A stretch of 16,415 nucleotides of DNA from a virus (Duplodnaviria > Heunggongvirae > Uroviricota > Caudoviricetes), in IMG/VR virus record IMGVR_UViG_2690316243_000005; one strand, given 5' to 3'. A program made the position numbers and the translations under genes. Under the pieces are notes generated by a model. That model had not been told where the DNA came from and did no database searches. It saw only the letters and a program-made list of their open reading frames with translations. Below are positions 7,990 to 14,630 of the stretch, in pieces (the stretch's first letter is position 1; each line of letters begins with the position of its first letter).

Positions 7990-10900
7990 ATGGGAAAAGG
8001 TGGCGGTAAGGCACACACGCCTCGTGAGGCGAAGGATAATCTCAAATCCACGCAGATGATGAGCGTGATTGATGCGATTGGTGAGGGACTGATAGAAGGT
8101 CCGGTGAAGGGACTGCAGAGTATCCTGGTGAACAAAACCCCGCTGACGGACACGGACGGTAATCCCGTGATACACGGTGTGACGGCGGTCTGACGCGCCG
8201 GGGAGCAGGAGCAGACACCACCGGAAGGCTTTGAGTCCTCCGGTGCTGAAACCGGACTGGGCGTGGAAGTGACGAAGGCAAAACCGGTGACGCGCACCAT
8301 TACGTCCGCGAACATTGACCGCCTGCGGGTTACCTTCGGGGTGCAGTCACTGGTGCAGACCACGTCAAAGGGTGACCGAAACCCGACATCCGTCCGCCTG
8401 CTGATTCAGTTACAGCGTAACGGTAACTGGGTGACAGAAAAGGATGTCACCATTAACGGCAAGACCACCTCGCAGTTTCTGGCGTCGGTGATTCTGGATA
8501 ATCTGCCTCCCCGTCCTTTTAACATCCGGATGGTCCGGGAGACAGCGGACAGCACCACGGACCAGCTGCAGAATAAGACGCTGTGGTCGTCATACACCGA
8601 AATCATCGATGTGAAACAGTGCTACCCGAACACGGCCATTGTGGGGCTGCAGGTGGATGCGGAGCAGTTCGGCGGCCAGCAGATGACGGTGAACTACCAT
8701 ATCCGCGGTCGCATCATCCAGGTGCCGTCAAACTATGACCCGGAAAAACGCACGTACAGTGGTATCTGGGACGGCAGCCTGAAACCGGCATACAGCAACA
8801 ATCCGGCCTGGTGTCTGTGGGACATGCTGACTCACCCGCGCTACGGCATGGGAAAACGTCTGGGGGCGGCGGATGTGGACAAGTGGGCGCTGTATGCCAT
8901 CGGGCAGTACTGCGACCAGACGGTCCCGGATGGTTTCGGGGAGACCGAGCCGCGGATGACCTTCAATGCGTACCTGGCACAACAGCGTAAGGCATGGGAC
9001 GTGCTCAGTGATTTCTGCTCGGCGATGCGCTGTATGCCGGTATGGAACGGCCAGACGCTGACGTTTGTTCAGGACCGCCCGTCGGATGTGGTGTGGCCGT
9101 ACACCAACAGCGATGTGGTGGTGGATGATAACGGCGTGGGTTTCCGCTACAGCTTCAGTGCCCTGAAGGACCGGCACACGGCGGTGGAGGTGAATTATAC
9201 CGACCCGCAGAACGGCTGGCAGACCTCCACGGAACTGGTGGAAGACCCGGAAGCCATACTGCGCTACGGACGCAACCTGCTGAAGATGGACGCGTTCGGC
9301 TGTACCAGCCGCGGTCAGGCCCACCGTGCCGGACTGTGGGTGATAAAGACCGAACTGCTGGAAACGCAGACGGTGGATTTCACGCTCGGGTCTCAGGGGC
9401 TGCGGCACACACCCGGTGACATCATTGAAATCTGTGATAACGACTATGCCGGGACCCTGACCGGCGGACGTGTCCTGTCCATTGATGCTGCCACCCGCAC
9501 TCTGACGCTGGACCGTGAAGTGACACTTCCGGAGACCGGTGCCGCCACGGTGAACCTGATTAACGGCAGCGGTAAGCCGGTGAGTGTGGACATCACCGAA
9601 CACCCCGCGCCGGACCGGATACAGGTCAGTACCCTGCCTGATGGTGTGGAGACATACGGGGTGTGGGGACTCTCCCTGCCGTCACTGCGCCGTCGCCTGT
9701 TCCGCTGTGTCTCCGTCCGGGAAAACACGGACGGCACCTTTGCCATCACGGCGGTGCAGCACGTACTGGAAAAAGAAGCCATCGTGGATAACGGTGCCCG
9801 CTTTGAGCCGCAGTCAGGTTCCCTGAACAGCGTCATCCCACCGGCAGTGCAGCACCTGACGGCCAGTATCTGGCGCAGGCGAAATGGGACACGCCGCGGG
9901 TGGTGAAGGGTGTGCGCTTCAGTCTGCGCCTGACCAGTGGTAAGGGAACGGATGCCAGACTGGTGACCACCGCCATCACCGCAGACACGGAGCACCGTTT
10001 CAGCGGCCTGCCGCTCGGGGAATACACCCTGACGGTGCGGGCGATAAACAGCTATGGCCAGCAGGGTGAACCTGCCACCACCACCTTCCGGATTGCCGCA
10101 CCGGCAGCACCGTCGCGGATTGAGCTGACGCCGGGCTATTTTCAGATAACCGCAACGCCGCATCTTGCCGTTTATGACCCGACGGTACAGTTTGAGTTCT
10201 GGTTCTCGGAAAAGCGGATTGCGGATATCAGGCAGGTTGAAACCAGCGCCCGCTATCTTGGCACGGCGCTGTACTGGATAGCCGCCAGTATCAATATCAG
10301 GCCGGGCCATGATTATTATTTTTACGTTCGCAGTGTGAACACCGTTGGCAAATCGGCATTCGTGGAGGCTGTCGGTCGGGCGAGCGATGATGCGGAAGGT
10401 TACCTGGATTTTTTCAAAGGAGAGATAGGGAAAACACATCTGGCTCAGGAGCTGTGGACGCAGATTGATAACGGTCAGCTTGCGCCTGACCTGGCTGAAA
10501 TCAGGACGTCCATTACGGATGTCAGCAATGAAATCACGCAGACTGTCAATAAGAAACTGAAAGACCAGAGTGCGGCAATCCAGCAGATACAGAAGGTTCA
10601 GGTTGATACAAATAATAATCTGAACAGCATGTGGGCTGTGAAGCTGCAACAGATGAAGGACGGACGCCTTTATATTGCGGGTATCGGTGCCGGTATTGAG
10701 AATACGCCAGCAGGAATGCAGAGTCAGGTGCTGCTGGCGGCAGACAGGATTGCGATGATTAATCCTGCGAATGGCAACACAAAGCCGATGTTTGTTGGTC
10801 AGGGCGATCAGATATTCATGAACGACGTGTTCCTGAAACGCCTGACGGCTCCCACCATTACCAGCGGCGGTAATCCTCCGGCATTTTCCCTGACACCTGG

Positions 10901-11441
10901 CGGACGGCTGACGGCGAAAAATGCCGATATCAGCGGTAACGTGAACGCGAACTCCGGGACGCTCAACAACGTCACGATTAATAAGAACTGTCGGGTTCTG
11001 GGAAAATTGTCCGCGAACCAGATTGAAGGCGATCTCGTTAAAACAGTGGGCAAACCTTTCCCACGGGACTCCCGGGCACCGGAGAGGTGGCCATCAGGGA
11101 CCATTACCGTCAGGGTTTATGACGATCAGCCGTTTGATCGGCAAATTGTTATTCCCGCGGTGGCGTTTCGCGGTGCTAAACATGAGTGGAAGAATAACAA
11201 TATTTATTCGTCATGCCGCCTGATAGTGAAGAAAAACGGTGCTGAAATTTATAACCGAACGACCCTGGATAATACGCTGATATATACGGGTGTTATTGAT
11301 ATGCCTGCCGGTCACGGTCACATGACGCTGGAGTTTTCTGTATCGGCATGGCTGGTAAATGGCTGGTATCCCACAGCAAGTATCAGCGATTTGCTGGTTG
11401 TGGTGATGAAGAAAGCCACTGCAGGCATCACGATTAGCTGA
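7990..11441 (+). pseudogene. J: Central tail fiber / host-specificity protein J, disrupted by an in-frame opal codon and a frame switch
   Basis: Three ORF-track pieces (7990..8193, 8263..9906 both frame 1; 9900..11441 frame 0) read as contiguous J-like protein, total ~1150 codons (lambda J 1132 aa). TGA at 8191-8193 sits inside conserved GVT.V-x-RAGEQEQTPPEGFESSG; frame changes near 9864. Confidence 0.85.
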
Positions 11442-11460
11442 ATTTTATAACCCAGATACG

Positions 11461-11484
11461 GGCACCAGAAATGGTGCCTTTTTT
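11461..11484 (+). terminator. Rho-independent terminator after J (copy 1)
   Basis: ggcacc / agaaat loop / ggtgcc followed by TTTTTT; the lom RBS follows. Confidence 0.6.
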
Positions 11485-11508
11485 ATTGCAGAAAAGCGAG
11501 AGGTAATT

Positions 11509-11553
11509 ATGCGTAAAGTTTGTGCAGCCATTTTGTCCGCAGCCATCTGTCTG
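11509..11553 (+). pseudogene. lom: lom 5' stub (first 15 codons, MRKVCAAILSAAICL) fused to the second J 3' copy
   Basis: Identical to the first 45 nt of lom at 12444 and 13880, with the same RBS gagagg; continues out of frame into J-derived sequence and stops at 11632-11634. Confidence 0.65.
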
Positions 11554-11563
11554 ACTGAACAGC

Positions 11564-12376
11564 ATGTGGGCTGTGAAGCTGCAACAGATGAAGGACGGAC
11601 GCCTTTATATTGCGGGTATCGGTGCCGGTATTGAGAATACGCCAGCAGGAATGCAGAGTCAGGTGCTGCTGGCGGCAGACAGGATTGCGATGATTAATCC
11701 TGCGAATGGCAACACAAAGCCGATGTTTGTTGGTCAGGGCGATCAGATATTCATGAACGACGTGTTCCTGAAACGCCTGACGGCTCCCACCATTACCAGC
11801 GGCGGTAATCCTCCGGCATTTTCCCTGACACCGGACGGAAAACTGACCGCTAAAAATGCAGATATCAGTGGCAGTGTGAATGCGAACGCCGGGACGCTCA
11901 ACAATGTCACAATTAATGAGAACTGTCAGATTAAGGGGAAACTGTCAGCCAACCAGATTGAAGGCGATATAGTCAAAACAGTGGGTAAGGCTTTTCCGCG
12001 GGACTCCCGGGCACCGGAGCGGTGGCCATCAGGGACCATTACCGTCAGGATTTATGACGATCAGCCTTTTGACAGGCAAATTGTTATTCCGGCGGTGGCA
12101 TTCAGCGGCGCTAAACATGAGCGGGAGAATAACGATATTTATTCGTCATGCCGCCTGATAGTACGGAAAAACGGTGCTGAAATTTATAACCGTACCGCGC
12201 TGGATAATACGCTGATTTACAGTGGTGTTATTGATATGCCAGCTGGTCGCGGCCACATGACGCTGGAGTTTTCGGTGTCAGCATGGCTGGTGAATAACTG
12301 GTATCCCACAGCAAGTATCAGCGATTTGCTGGTTGTGGTGATGAAGAAAGCCACCGCAGGCATCAGTATCAGCTGA
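11564..12376 (+). pseudogene. J: Orphan second copy of the J C-terminal (receptor-binding) region, 270 codons, no J upstream and no obvious RBS
   Basis: Track ORF 11564..12376 parallels the last 270 aa of J copy 1: first ~90 aa identical, then ~20 substitutions. Starts at an internal Met of J. Confidence 0.7.
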
Positions 12377-12395
12377 ATTTTATAACCCATATACG

Positions 12396-12419
12396 GGCGC
12401 CAGAAATGGCGCCTTTTTT
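12396..12419 (+). terminator. Rho-independent terminator after the orphan J 3' copy
   Basis: ggcgcc / agaaat / ggcgcc plus TTTTTT; differs from copy 1 by a compensatory pair in the stem. Confidence 0.6.
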
Positions 12420-12443
12420 ATTGCAGAAAAGCGAGAGGTAATT

Positions 12444-13043
12444 ATGCGTAAAGTTTGTGCAGCCATTTTGTCCGCAGCCATCTGTCTGGCCTTATCCGGT
12501 GCGCCTGCATGGGCGTCTGAACATCAGTCCACGCTGAGCGCCGGGTATCTTCAGACCCATACTGATATGCCAGGCAGCGATGACCTGAAGGGCATTAACG
12601 TGAAATACCGTTATGAGTTTACGGACACGCTGGGGCTGATTACGTCATTCAGTTATGCCAACGCTGAAGATGAGCAAAAAACGCATTACAGCGATACCCG
12701 CTGGCATGAGGATTCCGTGCGTAACCGCTGGTTCAGCGTGATGGCGGGGCCGTCTGTGCGCGTGAATGAATGGTTCAGCGCGTATGCGATGGCGGGCGTG
12801 GCTTACAGCCGTGTGTCGACCTTCTCCGGGGATTATCTCCGCGTAACTGACAACAAGGGGAAAACGCACGATGTGCTGACCGGAAGTGATGACGGTCGCC
12901 ACAGCAACACGTCTCTGGCGTGGGGGGCTGGCGTGCAGTTTAACCCGACCGAATCCGTGGCCATTGACCTTGCTTATGAAGGTTCCGGCAGTGGTGACTG
13001 GCGCACTGACGGTTTCATCGTGGGTGTCGGTTATAAGTTCTGA
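12444..13043 (+). CDS. lom: Lom outer-membrane protein, copy 1 (Ail/Lom/OmpX-family beta-barrel)
   Basis: 199-aa ORF; signal peptide with AWA|SE cleavage site; C-terminal aromatic residue (..GYKF); matches recalled lambda Lom along its length; own RBS and flanking terminators. Confidence 0.9.
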   Translation: MRKVCAAILSAAICLALSGAPAWASEHQSTLSAGYLQTHTDMPGSDDLKGINVKYRYEFTDTLGLITSFSYANAEDEQKTHYSDTRWHEDSVRNRWFSVMAGPSVRVNEWFSAYAMAGVAYSRVSTFSGDYLRVTDNKGKTHDVLTGSDDGRHSNTSLAWGAGVQFNPTESVAIDLAYEGSGSGDWRTDGFIVGVGYKF

Positions 13044-13070
13044 TTAGCCAGGTAACACAGTGTTATGACT

Positions 13071-13095
13071 GCCCGCTGGTTCAGGCGGGCTTTTT
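13071..13095 (+). terminator. Rho-independent terminator after lom copy 1
   Basis: gcccgc / 8-nt loop / gcgggc followed by TTTTT; resembles the lambda lom-stf intergenic arrangement. Confidence 0.6.
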
Positions 13096-13106
13096 GTGGG
13101 GTGAAT

Positions 13107-13418
13107 ATGGCAGTAAAGATTTCAGGTGTACTGAAAGATGGGGCGGGTAAACCTGTCGTAAATTGTGCGATTGAACTGCGGGCCAGAAGAACCAGTCCGA
13201 CCGTTGTGGCACACGTTGTTGCCACTTGCGTGACGGACAATAACGGTGCTTATGTGATTGAGGCTGAGCCGGGGTATTACGAGGTTGCGCTTCACTGTAA
13301 CGGCTGGCAGCCAACCCGTGTCGGGGATATTGATGTGGCACCGACTGATGCACCGGGGACACTGAACGCGTTTCTGAATGCACCAAAGGATGGTGATTTA
13401 CGTCCGGAGGTGATGAAG
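13107..13418 (+). pseudogene. stf: Side tail fiber N-terminal fragment, variant allele, truncated by the IS21 remnant
   Basis: MAVKISGVLKDGAGKPV.NC.I.L.ARR... parallels the start of the stf at 14631 but diverges after ~30 aa; the open frame runs into IS sequence and stops at 13433. Confidence 0.7.
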
Positions 13419-13736
13419 TGTCAGCGCCAGTGATATAAGACGGTAATTCGCCATTTGGATTGTCCGCTCCACCCAACATGTTGTTTCCTTAAGGTTCTCA
13501 CACCAGAAAGGACATCAACATGCTGAGCAGAGAGGACTTTTACATGATAAAGCAAATGCGCCAGCAGGGCGCGTACATCGTCGATATTGCGACTCAGATT
13601 GGTTGCTCTGAACGGACGGTCAGACGCTACCTCAAATACCCTGAACCGCCAGCCAGAAAGACCCGCCACAAAATGGTTAAGCTGAAACCGTTTATGGATT
13701 ACATCGACATGCGCCTGGCAGAGAATGTCTGGAAAA
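13419..13736 (+). mobile_element. IS21-family insertion sequence remnant (terminal repeat plus 5' end of istA, ~318 bp)
   Basis: Begins TGTCAG..., carries the N-terminal 72 aa of an IstA-type transposase; homology to the J 3' end resumes at 13737. Confidence 0.8.
13520..13735 (+). pseudogene. istA: Truncated IS21 transposase IstA (N-terminal helix-turn-helix region only)
   Basis: MLSREDFYMIKQMRQQGAYIVDIATQIGCSERTVRRYLKYPEPPARKTRHKMVKLKPFMDYIDMRLAENVW matches the recalled IS21 IstA N-terminus; the following 14 residues are J-derived out-of-frame sequence. Confidence 0.8.
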
Positions 13737-13812
13737 GTATCCCACAGCAAGTATCAGCGATTTGCTGGTTGTGGTGATGAAGAAAGCCACCGCAGGCATC
13801 AGTATCAGCTGA
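13737..13812 (+). pseudogene. J: Third copy of the extreme J 3' end (last ~24 codons plus stop)
   Basis: [24 protein letters not shown] matches copy 2 (ISIS ending, not ITIS of copy 1); offset 1436 from copy 2. Confidence 0.7.
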
Positions 13813-13831
13813 ATTTTATAACCCATATACG

Positions 13832-13855
13832 GGCGCCAGAAATGGCGCCTTTTTT
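13832..13855 (+). terminator. Rho-independent terminator before lom copy 2
   Basis: Same ggcgcc / agaaat / ggcgcc + TTTTTT hairpin as at 12396-12419. Confidence 0.6.
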
Positions 13856-13879
13856 ATTGCAGAAAAGCGAGAGGTAATT

Positions 13880-14479
13880 ATGCGTAAAGTTTGTGCAGCC
13901 ATTTTGTCCGCAGCCATCTGTCTGTCCGTATCCGGTGCGCCTGCATGGGCGTCTGAACATCAGTCCACACTGAGCGCGGGGTATCTTCATGCCCGTACGA
14001 ACGCTCCCGGCAGCGATAATCTGAACGGGATTAACGTGAAATACCGTTATGAGTTTACGGACGCGCTGGGGCTGATTACGTCCTTCAGTTATGCCAATGC
14101 TGAGGATGAGCAAAAAACGCACTACAGCGATACCCGCTGGCATGAAGATTCCGTGCGTAACCGCTGGTTCAGCGTGATGGCGGGGCCGTCTGTACGCGTG
14201 AATGAATGGTTCAGCGCGTATGCGATGGTGGGTGTGGCTTACAGCCGTGTGTCGACTTTCTCCGGGGATTATCTCCGCGTAACTGACAACAAGGGGAAAA
14301 CGCACGATGTGCTGACCGGAAGTGATGACGGTCGCCACAGCAACACGTCTCTGGCGTGGGGGGCTGGCGTGCAGTTTAACCCGACCGAATCCGTGACCAT
14401 TGACCTTGCTTATGAAGGTTCCGGTAGTGGTGACTGGCGAACGGATGCATTTATTGTTGGTATCGGATACCGTATCTGA
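13880..14479 (+). CDS. lom: Lom outer-membrane protein, copy 2 (diverged paralog)
   Basis: 199-aa ORF with the same signal peptide and barrel signature; differs from copy 1 mainly in the signal peptide, residues ~36-49 and the C-terminus (GIGYRI). Confidence 0.9.
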   Translation: MRKVCAAILSAAICLSVSGAPAWASEHQSTLSAGYLHARTNAPGSDNLNGINVKYRYEFTDALGLITSFSYANAEDEQKTHYSDTRWHEDSVRNRWFSVMAGPSVRVNEWFSAYAMVGVAYSRVSTFSGDYLRVTDNKGKTHDVLTGSDDGRHSNTSLAWGAGVQFNPTESVTIDLAYEGSGSGDWRTDAFIVGIGYRI

Positions 14480-14584
14480 CAACAGACGCCGATTTATCTT
14501 CTGTAAATATTGTTATGATACGCAGGTTCATCCACCTTATGGGGTGAACTGCGTTTGAGGAAACGTAAAGTTACACTGTCCTGA

Positions 14585-14616
14585 AGCCCGTGGCGTCACT
14601 GCTGCGGGCTTTTTTT
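14585..14616 (+). terminator. Possible terminator between lom copy 2 and stf
   Basis: agcccg ... cgggct stem with a large 14-nt loop followed by a 7-T run; weaker than the other terminators. Confidence 0.35.
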
Positions 14617-14630
14617 ATTGGTGGAAAAGT

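What the first reader, a model, noticed from the sequence alone, without database searches (positions are those of the whole stretch)
9856..9906. Frame switch in J near 9864, consistent with a short deletion
J-like translation continues in frame 1 up to ..PPAVQHLTA (ending at 9864) and resumes in frame 0 from ..[19 protein letters not shown] (from 9864), with frame 1 terminating at 9904-9906. Against my recollection of lambda J (..HLTAEVTADSGEYQVLARWDTPKVVKGV..) about seven codons plus one base are missing, about 22 nt. With the opal codon this makes J non-functional as written. No slippery motif is present, so programmed frameshifting looks unlikely.
Basis: partly seen in the sequence, partly recalled or inferred. 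Interest (0 to 1): 0.4.

Follow-up and report, generated by a model that had tools for sequence, protein, structure and literature searches.

The report
22-bp deletion breaking prophage gene J
The frame switch is real: a 22-base deletion between two 7-base direct repeats, together with an upstream stop codon, has killed the tail-tip gene J of a decayed lambda-like prophage carried by Shigella sonnei, which is ordinary prophage decay.

Summary
Confirmed and ordinary. The window is a Shigella sonnei draft record (CXCY01000103.1) holding the tail half of a lambda-like prophage remnant. Gene J starts at 7990. It carries TGA at 8191-8193 where intact relatives have TGG. At 9856-9862 it lacks exactly 22 nt that are present, in frame, in intact gpJ of E. 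coli E2348/69, in the J sequence of phage VT1-Sakai, and as colinear residues in lambda gpJ.

In the intact allele the lost segment lies between two copies of CTGACGG spaced 22 nt apart, and one copy remains. This is the signature of repeat-mediated (slippage or microhomology) deletion. The upstream frame runs 14 aberrant codons to TGA at 9904-9906. The rest of J continues in the -1 frame to 11441. Reverting both lesions restores one 1157-aa ORF with the full gpJ domain set.

Both lesions are in all 10 S. sonnei chromosome-scale loci examined and in 5 IMG/VR contigs. Neither was found in 5,426 complete E. coli genomes. So this is not a sequencing error.

The overlap has no slippery heptamer and no unusually stable RNA fold, and the two-frame layout is not conserved outside this lineage. 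Programmed frameshifting is therefore rejected.

A sublineage has a second deletion of 17 nt, also between 7-bp repeats.

Interest is low.

The parts
7990..11441 (+). Gene J (lambda gpJ-type tail tip attachment / host specificity protein), a pseudogene with two lesions. It is 3452 nt against 3474 nt in the intact allele.
   Evidence: Translation. Blastn to E2348/69 gpJ, 95% over 3.6 kb. Reverting both lesions gives one 1157-aa ORF with 1125/1158 positions identical to E2348/69 gpJ, the full Pfam gpJ architecture, and colinearity with lambda gpJ PDB 8iyk.
8191..8193 (+). In-frame opal TGA at codon 68, where E2348/69 gpJ has TGG (Trp). This is a G-to-A nonsense mutation.
   Evidence: window CGGCGGTCTGAC against L001 CGGCGGTCTGGC. 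Lambda has Phe at the aligned position. No complete E. coli genome matches the 66-mer containing TGA exactly.
9856..9862 (+). Deletion junction: the single retained copy of the 7-bp direct repeat CTGACGG. The intact allele reads CAC-CTGACGG-TGGAGGTGAGCGCAG-CTGACGG-CCAG, and 22 nt (one repeat copy plus the 15-nt spacer) are missing here.
   Evidence: Alignment, repeat coordinates, repeat census.
9862..9906 (+). Out-of-frame tail of the upstream reading frame: 14 aberrant codons ([14 protein letters not shown]) and then TGA at 9904-9906.
9864..11441 (+). The remaining C-terminal part of J, read in the -1 frame (pos mod 3 = 0). It holds Ig_J (partial), Ig_J_second, Phage_Tail_Tip and the Ig_GpJ_C receptor-binding domain. 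Gene callers annotate it as a 513-aa ORF from GTG 9900.
9643..9666 (+). A second slippage substrate, still intact in this window: GGTGTGG at 9643-9649 and again at 9660-9666. A sublineage (L005, L017) has lost the 17 nt between and including one copy.

Best explanation
The frame switch is the scar of a 22-bp deletion in gene J, the tail tip attachment protein of a defective lambda-like prophage of Shigella sonnei. In the ancestral allele two copies of CTGACGG lay 22 bp apart. Mispairing between them removed one copy and the 15-bp spacer. The mispairing could have been replication slippage or another RecA-independent microhomology event. The loss shifts the reading frame by -1 at codon 623-630, inside the first Ig-like domain. 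Translation in the original frame ends 14 codons later at TGA 9904-9906. A separate TGG-to-TGA nonsense mutation at codon 68 already truncates the protein. The prophage is cut off by an IS21-family element just upstream of gene Z in finished genomes, so it cannot make particles and J is under no selection. The lesions are neutral decay that became fixed in the S. sonnei lineage. Shown: the deletion, its exact size, the flanking repeats, its inheritance, and the absence of frameshift signals. Inferred: the molecular mechanism of the deletion, the neutrality, and the order of the two lesions (unknown).
For: - A 22-nt gap, and otherwise near-identity, against intact gpJ of E2348/69 and against VT1-Sakai J.
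- Top phage and E. coli hits span 573 nt for a 551-nt query.
- The intact allele has CTGACGG on both sides of the lost segment, and one copy is retained at 9856-9862.
- Intact J has only 13 direct-repeat pairs of at least 7 bp with period 8-60. Only about 6e-4 of possible 8-60-nt deletions would be so flanked. Yet both deletions seen in this lineage (22 nt, and 17 nt in L005/L017) sit on such pairs.
- Reverting TGA to TGG and re-inserting the 22 nt yields a single 1157-aa ORF 97% identical to intact gpJ. It has all six gpJ Pfam domains and a gap-free alignment to lambda gpJ at the site.
- The junction and the opal are both present in all 10 S. sonnei loci taken from large contigs L009-L018, nine of them above 4.5 Mb. 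The junction is also in all 5 IMG/VR contigs, and the opal in each of them.
- The 67-aa N-terminal product is on record on 551 contigs, and the 547-aa middle product on 24 contigs, named Shigella sonnei.
- Neither lesion occurs in 5,426 complete E. coli genomes.
- An IS21-family transposase lies immediately upstream of Z in finished genomes, with no head genes there.
- Further independent lesions occur in other strains: tape-measure gene split in L016, gene I split in L014, the 17-nt deletion in L017.
Against: No reads could be examined for this particular assembly. The sequencing technology of the finished genomes is not known to me. Replication slippage cannot be told apart from other microhomology-mediated mechanisms on sequence alone. 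Neutrality is inferred from context, not measured. Expression of the downstream 513-aa ORF from GTG 9900 is not excluded.
Confidence: 0.94

Rival explanations
1. Sequencing or assembly indel error confined to this draft contig: the real genome has the 22 nt and an intact frame.
For: The window is a short-read-style draft scaffold with internal gaps (N at 11554 and 13733-13736 in the public record). Its J 3' end looks chimeric. So the assembly is not flawless.
Against: The identical 36-nt junction is present in 10 other S. sonnei assemblies, nine of them on contigs above 4.5 Mb, and in 5 IMG/VR contigs. The window is identical to the S. sonnei chromosome HE616528.1 around the site; the nearest mismatches are at 9695 and 10300. 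A 22-nt loss is not a typical homopolymer-type error.
Confidence: 0.01
2. Programmed -1 ribosomal frameshift, or another recoding event, that joins the two J frames into a functional protein.
For: The required shift is -1 and the two frames overlap by 100 nt (9807-9906). Lambdoid tail operons do use -1 frameshifting elsewhere (G/GT).
Against: The overlap has no XXXYYYZ heptamer and no homopolymer of 4 or more. The same scan finds the genuine G/GT site GGGAAAG at 2272 in the right phase. The RNA fold has z = 0.38 against shuffles. Relatives outside this lineage encode the region in one frame with 22 more nt. The upstream opal at codon 68 would still truncate the protein. A sublineage tolerates a further 17-nt deletion that brings stops at codons 595 and 600.
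Confidence: 0.01
3. The polarity is reversed: the window shows the ancestral state and the relatives carry a 22-nt insertion or duplication.
For: The 7-bp repeat flanking the segment would also be compatible with a target-site-like duplication.
Against: Only the allele with the 22 nt gives an open 1157-aa frame. Lambda gpJ, whose structure is solved, has the corresponding residues (HLTAEVTADSGEYQ) with no gap. More than 3,000 complete E. coli genomes and 170 phage records cover the region with the longer form. The 15-nt spacer is unique coding sequence, not a copy of its neighbours.
Confidence: 0.01
4. The split is functional or selected. Either the J fragments are expressed and used by the host (for example the 513-aa C-terminal receptor-binding part from GTG 9900), or inactivation of J was itself adaptive.
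For: The remaining tail genes Z to I are still open in most strains. The lesions are fixed in the lineage. GTG 9900 overlaps the TGA at 9904-9906, a layout that could permit translational coupling.
Against: No evidence of expression. Other strains accumulate further lesions in J, H and I, as expected for neutral decay. S. sonnei is a young clonal lineage (my own knowledge), so fixation needs no selection. Open neighbouring genes are expected if little time has passed.
Confidence: 0.03

Closest known systems
Bacteriophage lambda gpJ (tip attachment protein J; PDB 8iyk, 8k35, 8xcg)
   Same: The repaired protein is colinear over its full length (phmmer E = 0; residues 1-834 and 865-1156 aligned). 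It has the same six Pfam domains and the same gene order Z-U-V-G-T-H-M-L-K-I-J-lom-stf.
   Different: Here the gene is broken by a nonsense codon and a 22-nt deletion. The repaired protein is 1157 aa against 1132 aa, with a divergent region between the second Ig domain and the tail-tip domain and a different C-terminal receptor-binding allele.
Intact gpJ of E. coli prophages, e.g. EPEC E2348/69 WP_000514675.1 (NC_011601.1 1466496-1469969)
   Same: 95% nucleotide identity over the whole gene, and identical for at least 60 nt on each side of the junction. This is the allele from which the deletion can be read off.
   Different: It carries TGG at codon 68 and the 22 nt CTGACGGTGGAGGTGAGCGCAG, and is annotated as an intact 1157-aa protein.
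J of prophage VT1-Sakai (E. coli O157:H7 Sakai), annotated 'truncated protein by a mutation'
   Same: Another lambdoid prophage whose J is split into two ORFs by a mutation. This shows that J pseudogenisation in resident prophages is commonplace.
   Different: The break lies elsewhere, at about codon 350-390 of J (ORFs 1392-2567 and 2444-4864 of L002). VT1-Sakai retains the 22 nt.
Spontaneous deletions between short direct repeats (classical lacI studies by Farabaugh et al. 1978 and Albertini et al. 1982; cited from my own knowledge)
   Same: The deletion end points fall in short direct repeats, one copy is retained, and the deletion length equals the repeat period.
   Different: Here the event is only inferred from comparative sequence. 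No rate or genetic dependence was measured.
Lambda G/GT programmed -1 frameshift (tail assembly chaperones)
   Same: Two overlapping frames within a tail gene that a -1 shift would join. A genuine example sits in this same window at 2272-2278.
   Different: The J junction lacks a slippery heptamer, a stimulatory structure, and conservation of the two-frame layout.

Membership tests
Lambda gpJ-type tail tip attachment protein gene | Domain architecture FNIII-A_GpJ, Phage-tail_3, Ig_J, Ig_J_second, Phage_Tail_Tip, Ig_GpJ_C | tested here: met
   All six domains score above the Pfam cut-offs on the repaired translation. The same families appear on the fragments as called in the public record.
Lambda gpJ-type tail tip attachment protein gene | Full-length colinearity with lambda gpJ | tested here: met
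   phmmer against PDB 8iyk_J gives E = 0, with query 1-834 aligned to chain 1-836 and 865-1156 to 839-1131.
Lambda gpJ-type tail tip attachment protein gene | Position after genes K and I and before lom and stf in a lambda-type tail operon | tested here: met
   Gene order and Pfam assignments. The same order is seen in finished genomes.
Lambda gpJ-type tail tip attachment protein gene | A single uninterrupted open reading frame (a functional gene) | tested here: not met
   TGA at 8191-8193 and a -1 frame change at 9856-9864. It is therefore a pseudogene of this family, not a working member.
Programmed -1 ribosomal frameshift site | Slippery heptamer X XXY YYZ in the correct phase within the frame overlap | tested here: not met
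   None in 9807-9906 in any phase. The positive control GGGAAAG at 2272 was found by the same scan.
Programmed -1 ribosomal frameshift site | Downstream stimulatory RNA structure | tested here: not met
   The MFE of 9840-9960 is -45 kcal/mol against a shuffle mean of -46.4, z = 0.38.
Programmed -1 ribosomal frameshift site | Two-frame arrangement conserved among homologues | tested here: not met
   Homologues outside the S. sonnei lineage read through in one frame with 22 extra nt.
Deletion by mispairing between short direct repeats | The ancestral allele has direct repeats at both deletion end points, the derived allele keeps one copy, and the length lost equals the repeat period | tested here: met
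   CTGACGG occurs twice, 22 nt apart, in E2348/69 and VT1-Sakai, and once in the window at 9856-9862.
Deletion by mispairing between short direct repeats | Flanking repeats more frequent than chance would give | tested here: met
   About 6e-4 of possible 8-60-nt deletions in J are flanked by a repeat of at least 7 bp. Both independent deletions in this lineage are.
Deletion by mispairing between short direct repeats | Dependence on replication slippage (RecA-independent; rate falls with repeat spacing) | not testable with these tools
   This needs genetics. The only support here is circumstantial: the two deletions used two of the three shortest-period repeat pairs in the gene.
Defective (cryptic) prophage remnant | Loss of essential modules and multiple inactivating lesions | tested here: met
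   An IS21-family element abuts gene Z, with no head genes upstream within the 2 kb of each finished-genome locus that lies ahead of Z. J carries two lesions. Other strains show further lesions in H, I and J. Only about 10 kb on each side was seen, so the remainder of the prophage was not surveyed.

The most novel reading that the evidence does not exclude
The most novel reading not strictly excluded is that the J fragments are not dead. On this reading the 513-aa C-terminal piece (GTG 9900 to 11441) carries the receptor-binding domain, is translated by coupling to the TGA at 9904-9906, and has been kept by S. sonnei for a host function. Alternatively, the paired lesions (opal plus 22-nt deletion) are a strictly S. 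sonnei-specific marker useful for typing.
Probability: 0.03. Interest if true: 0.3.

Novelty: already known. Interest (0 to 1): 0.07.

Why it matters
It matters little biologically. It is a textbook case of prophage decay in a pathogen known for pseudogene accumulation.

Its practical value is threefold:
- The J fragments (67, 547 and 513 aa) that many S. sonnei annotations list as separate 'host specificity proteins' are pieces of one pseudogene.
- The junction sequence GCAGCACCTGACGGCCAGTATC, together with the TGA at codon 68, was found only in the S. sonnei lineage among the collections searched. It could therefore serve as a lineage marker.
- The two independent deletions, both at 7-bp repeats of short period, are a tidy natural illustration of repeat-mediated deletion.

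The check also showed that the window is a gapped scaffold. That bears on other findings from the same window.

Tried and rejected
- The junction 36-mer gave no hit in GTDB species-representative genomes. A 26-mer gave none in JGI metagenome contigs. This is uninformative about S. sonnei, which is probably not a separate representative there.
- A literature search for this specific lesion found nothing specific, only a general review of defective prophages (PMC6379469).
- An Rfam scan of the whole window at gathering thresholds gave no match.
- The antisense ORFs across the site (9444-10649 minus strand, 401 aa; 9833-10027 minus strand, 64 aa) have no Pfam match. I regard them as the usual spurious ORFs opposite a G+C-rich gene.
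- Programmed frameshifting, sequencing error and reversed polarity were each considered and rejected (see rivals).
- I ran no further search on the taxonomic spread of the frameshifted C-terminal tail, because the answer would not change the verdict.

Full report
**Observation.** I read 9700-10060 and translated 7601-11600 in three frames.

- A lambda J-like protein begins at ATG 7990 (MGKGGGKAHTPREAKDNLKSTQ...) in the frame whose codons start where position mod 3 = 1.
- That frame meets TGA at 8191-8193. It continues after the stop with clear J homology and reaches ...[12 protein letters not shown] (GCC 9862-9864).
- It then reads 13 further unrelated residues ([13 protein letters not shown]) and stops at TGA 9904-9906.
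- J homology resumes as ..[21 protein letters not shown].. in the frame where position mod 3 = 0 (CAG at 9864-9866). It runs open to the stop at 11439-11441.

The ORF list shows the same three pieces: 7990-8193, 8263-9906 and 9900-11441.

**Size and nature of the lesion.** A 551-nt query around the site hits intact J genes in phage records and in complete E. coli genomes over 573 nt of subject. The difference is 22 nt. I fetched the intact gpJ of EPEC E2348/69 (L001, annotated as a 1157-aa protein) and the J region of VT1-Sakai (L002). Aligning both with 9790-9960 gives one gap of exactly 22 columns and otherwise near-identity.

- Intact sequence: GCAGCAC CTGACGG TGGAGGTGAGCGCAG CTGACGG CCAGTAT.
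- Window sequence: GCAGCAC CTGACGG CCAGTAT.

The lost segment is one copy of a 7-bp direct repeat plus the 15-bp spacer. The retained copy lies at 9856-9862. At protein level HLT-VEVSAAD-GQY becomes HLT-A(SIW...).

**Are these the only lesions?** J in the window is 3452 nt against 3474 nt in E2348/69. I changed TGA 8191-8193 back to TGG, the codon in E2348/69, and re-inserted the 22 nt. This yields a single 1157-aa ORF with 1125 of 1158 aligned positions identical to E2348/69 gpJ. The repaired protein carries FNIII-A_GpJ (86-207), Phage-tail_3 (331-492), Ig_J (609-712), Ig_J_second (714-816), Phage_Tail_Tip (870-998) and Ig_GpJ_C (1028-1157). The deletion starts at codon 623, within the first strand region of the first Ig-like domain. 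The frameshift disconnects the hub-forming N-terminal part from both Ig domains, the tip fibre and the receptor-binding domain.

**Source, and whether the lesion is real.**

- An exact-protein look-up shows that the window is the whole record CXCY01000103.1 of assembly GCA_001258795.1. Its proteins are named Shigella sonnei in NCBI.
- The 67-aa N-terminal product, which ends at the opal, is on record on 551 contigs. The 547-aa middle product, which ends at the frameshift stop, is on record on 24 contigs, named S. sonnei.
- I fetched ten places that encode the 67-aa product. Nine lie on contigs of 4.5-5.0 Mb, including HE616528.1, which I recall as strain 53G.
- All ten carry the exact 36-nt junction and the TGA.
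- Five IMG/VR contigs also carry both lesions, and none carries one without the other.
- Around the site the window is identical to HE616528.1. The nearest differences are at 9695 and 10300.
- Among 5,426 complete E. coli genomes, the best matches to a 70-nt junction probe are all two-piece matches spanning 92 nt, which is the intact form. No record matches the 66-nt TGA-containing probe exactly.

The lesions are therefore real and inherited. Within the collections searched they are confined to the S. sonnei lineage. Reads for this isolate could not be examined.

**Mechanism.** Deletions whose end points lie in short direct repeats, with one copy retained, are the classical product of slipped mispairing or microhomology-mediated recombination (established knowledge; lacI work of Farabaugh and Albertini, cited from memory).

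To ask whether the repeat could be chance, I listed all direct-repeat pairs of at least 7 bp with period 8-60 in intact J. There are 13. About 6e-4 of all possible deletions of 8-60 nt would be flanked in this way.

A sublineage (L017 from GCA_000281815.1, and IMG/VR contig L005) carries a second deletion of 17 nt at window 9643-9659. It too lies exactly between two 7-bp repeats, GGTGTGG. The two deletions used two of the three shortest-period repeat pairs in the gene. That both would be repeat-flanked by chance is of the order of 4e-7. The repeat-mediated origin is thus well supported. Which enzymatic route was taken is inferred, not shown.

**Context.** In finished genomes an IS21-family transposase pair lies directly upstream of gene Z, and no head genes follow it. 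The window itself starts 123 nt before Z, at that IS boundary. Other strains have further lesions: the tape-measure gene is split in L016, gene I is split in L014, and L017 has the 17-nt deletion in J. This is the picture of a grounded prophage decaying neutrally, as reviewed in PMC6379469. J of VT1-Sakai is itself annotated 'truncated protein by a mutation' at a different place. Broken J genes in resident lambdoid prophages are therefore common.

**Rivals.**

- *Programmed -1 frameshifting.* The two frames overlap over 9807-9906. That stretch has no XXXYYYZ heptamer in any phase and no homopolymer of 4 or more. The same script finds the genuine lambda-type G/GT site GGGAAAG at 2272-2278 in the correct phase. 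The RNA fold of 9840-9960 is not more stable than shuffles, z = 0.38. Homologues are single-frame. The opal at codon 68 would defeat any rescue.
- *Sequencing error.* The 15 concordant independent sequences exclude it.
- *Reversed polarity (an insertion in the relatives).* Only the long form is open, and it matches lambda residue for residue.
- *A functional split gene.* This cannot be formally excluded, but nothing supports it, and continued lesion accumulation argues against it.

**Curiosity.** In L017, 17 + 22 = 39 nt are lost, so the frame downstream of both deletions is restored and J is 3435 nt, a multiple of 3. The 65-codon out-of-frame stretch between the deletions nevertheless contains stops at codons 595 and 600, and the opal at codon 68 remains. 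This is not a compensatory repair.

**Assembly caveat found on the way.** The public record has N at 11554 and NNNN at 13733-13736, while the window shows A at those five positions. The window is therefore a scaffold of three pieces. The apparent tandem copies of the J 3' end and lom (11555-13033 and 13737-14479) are absent from this locus in all ten other S. sonnei loci, where J is followed directly by one lom and the tail fibre gene. The J 3' end at 10898-11475 holds 74 of the 83 mismatches to HE616528.1. The resulting 513-aa product is unique among about 15 billion proteins. This points to a chimeric join between paralogous prophage copies, or to a gene conversion. None of this touches the finding at 9856-9906.

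**Verdict.** This is a 22-bp repeat-mediated deletion that, together with a nonsense codon, inactivates J in a defective S. sonnei prophage. It is ordinary and of low interest.

Noticed in passing
window 11554 and 13733-13736: The public record (CXCY01000103.1) has N at these five positions, while the window shows A. The window is therefore a scaffold of three pieces (1-11553, 11555-13732, 13737-16415), not continuous sequence.
   Followed up: yes
window 11555-13033 and 13737-14479: Extra copies of the J 3' third plus lom, and of the last 188 nt of J (window 13737-13924) plus lom, make J-lom look tandemly repeated. Ten other S. sonnei loci, nine on chromosome-scale contigs, have only one J-lom-stf at this locus. 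This is most likely scaffolding of paralogous prophage fragments.
   Followed up: partly
window 10898-11475: 74 of the 83 mismatches to S. sonnei HE616528.1 cluster here, in the J receptor-binding end. The 513-aa ORF product is unique in the protein collection (one member). This suggests an assembly chimera with another prophage's J, or a gene conversion.
   Followed up: partly
window 9643-9666; L017 and L005: A sublineage has a further 17-nt deletion between GGTGTGG repeats. With the 22-nt deletion it restores the frame (39 nt lost in total), but stops at codons 595 and 600 lie in between.
   Followed up: yes
window 2272-2278: The canonical lambda G/GT slippery heptamer GGGAAAG lies in the correct phase at the end of the tail chaperone gene (1865-2296), with the T frame following (2323-2736). 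This is a genuine programmed -1 frameshift site.
   Followed up: partly
window 7647-7989: The I-J spacer is 343 nt, against 240 nt in E2348/69. It has an A+T-rich 176-nt segment (7811-7986) with no counterpart in E2348/69, and a terminator-like hairpin at about 7859-7885 (AAAACCCCGGTATC..GATACCGGGGTTTCTCTTT). ORFs there have no Pfam match and there is no Rfam match.
   Followed up: partly
window 13419-13737 and 13520-13777: This is an inverted copy of the sequence just upstream of Z, including the IS21-family end seen in finished genomes. The 85-aa ORF has a weak transposase or resolvase-type HTH. The stf N-terminal fragment at 13065-13433 is cut off here.
   Followed up: partly
L009-L018, about 17000-19300 (downstream of the window's end): Finished genomes show stf followed by oppositely oriented tail-fibre assembly genes, gp37_C fragments and a 60-aa resolvase fragment. 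This looks like a decayed invertible tail-fibre (Gin/Pin-type) segment, and several strains have IS3-family insertions in stf.
   Followed up: no
L002 (VT1-Sakai) 1392-4864: J of VT1-Sakai is annotated as two overlapping ORFs 'truncated protein by a mutation'. This is an independent J pseudogene at a different site.
   Followed up: no
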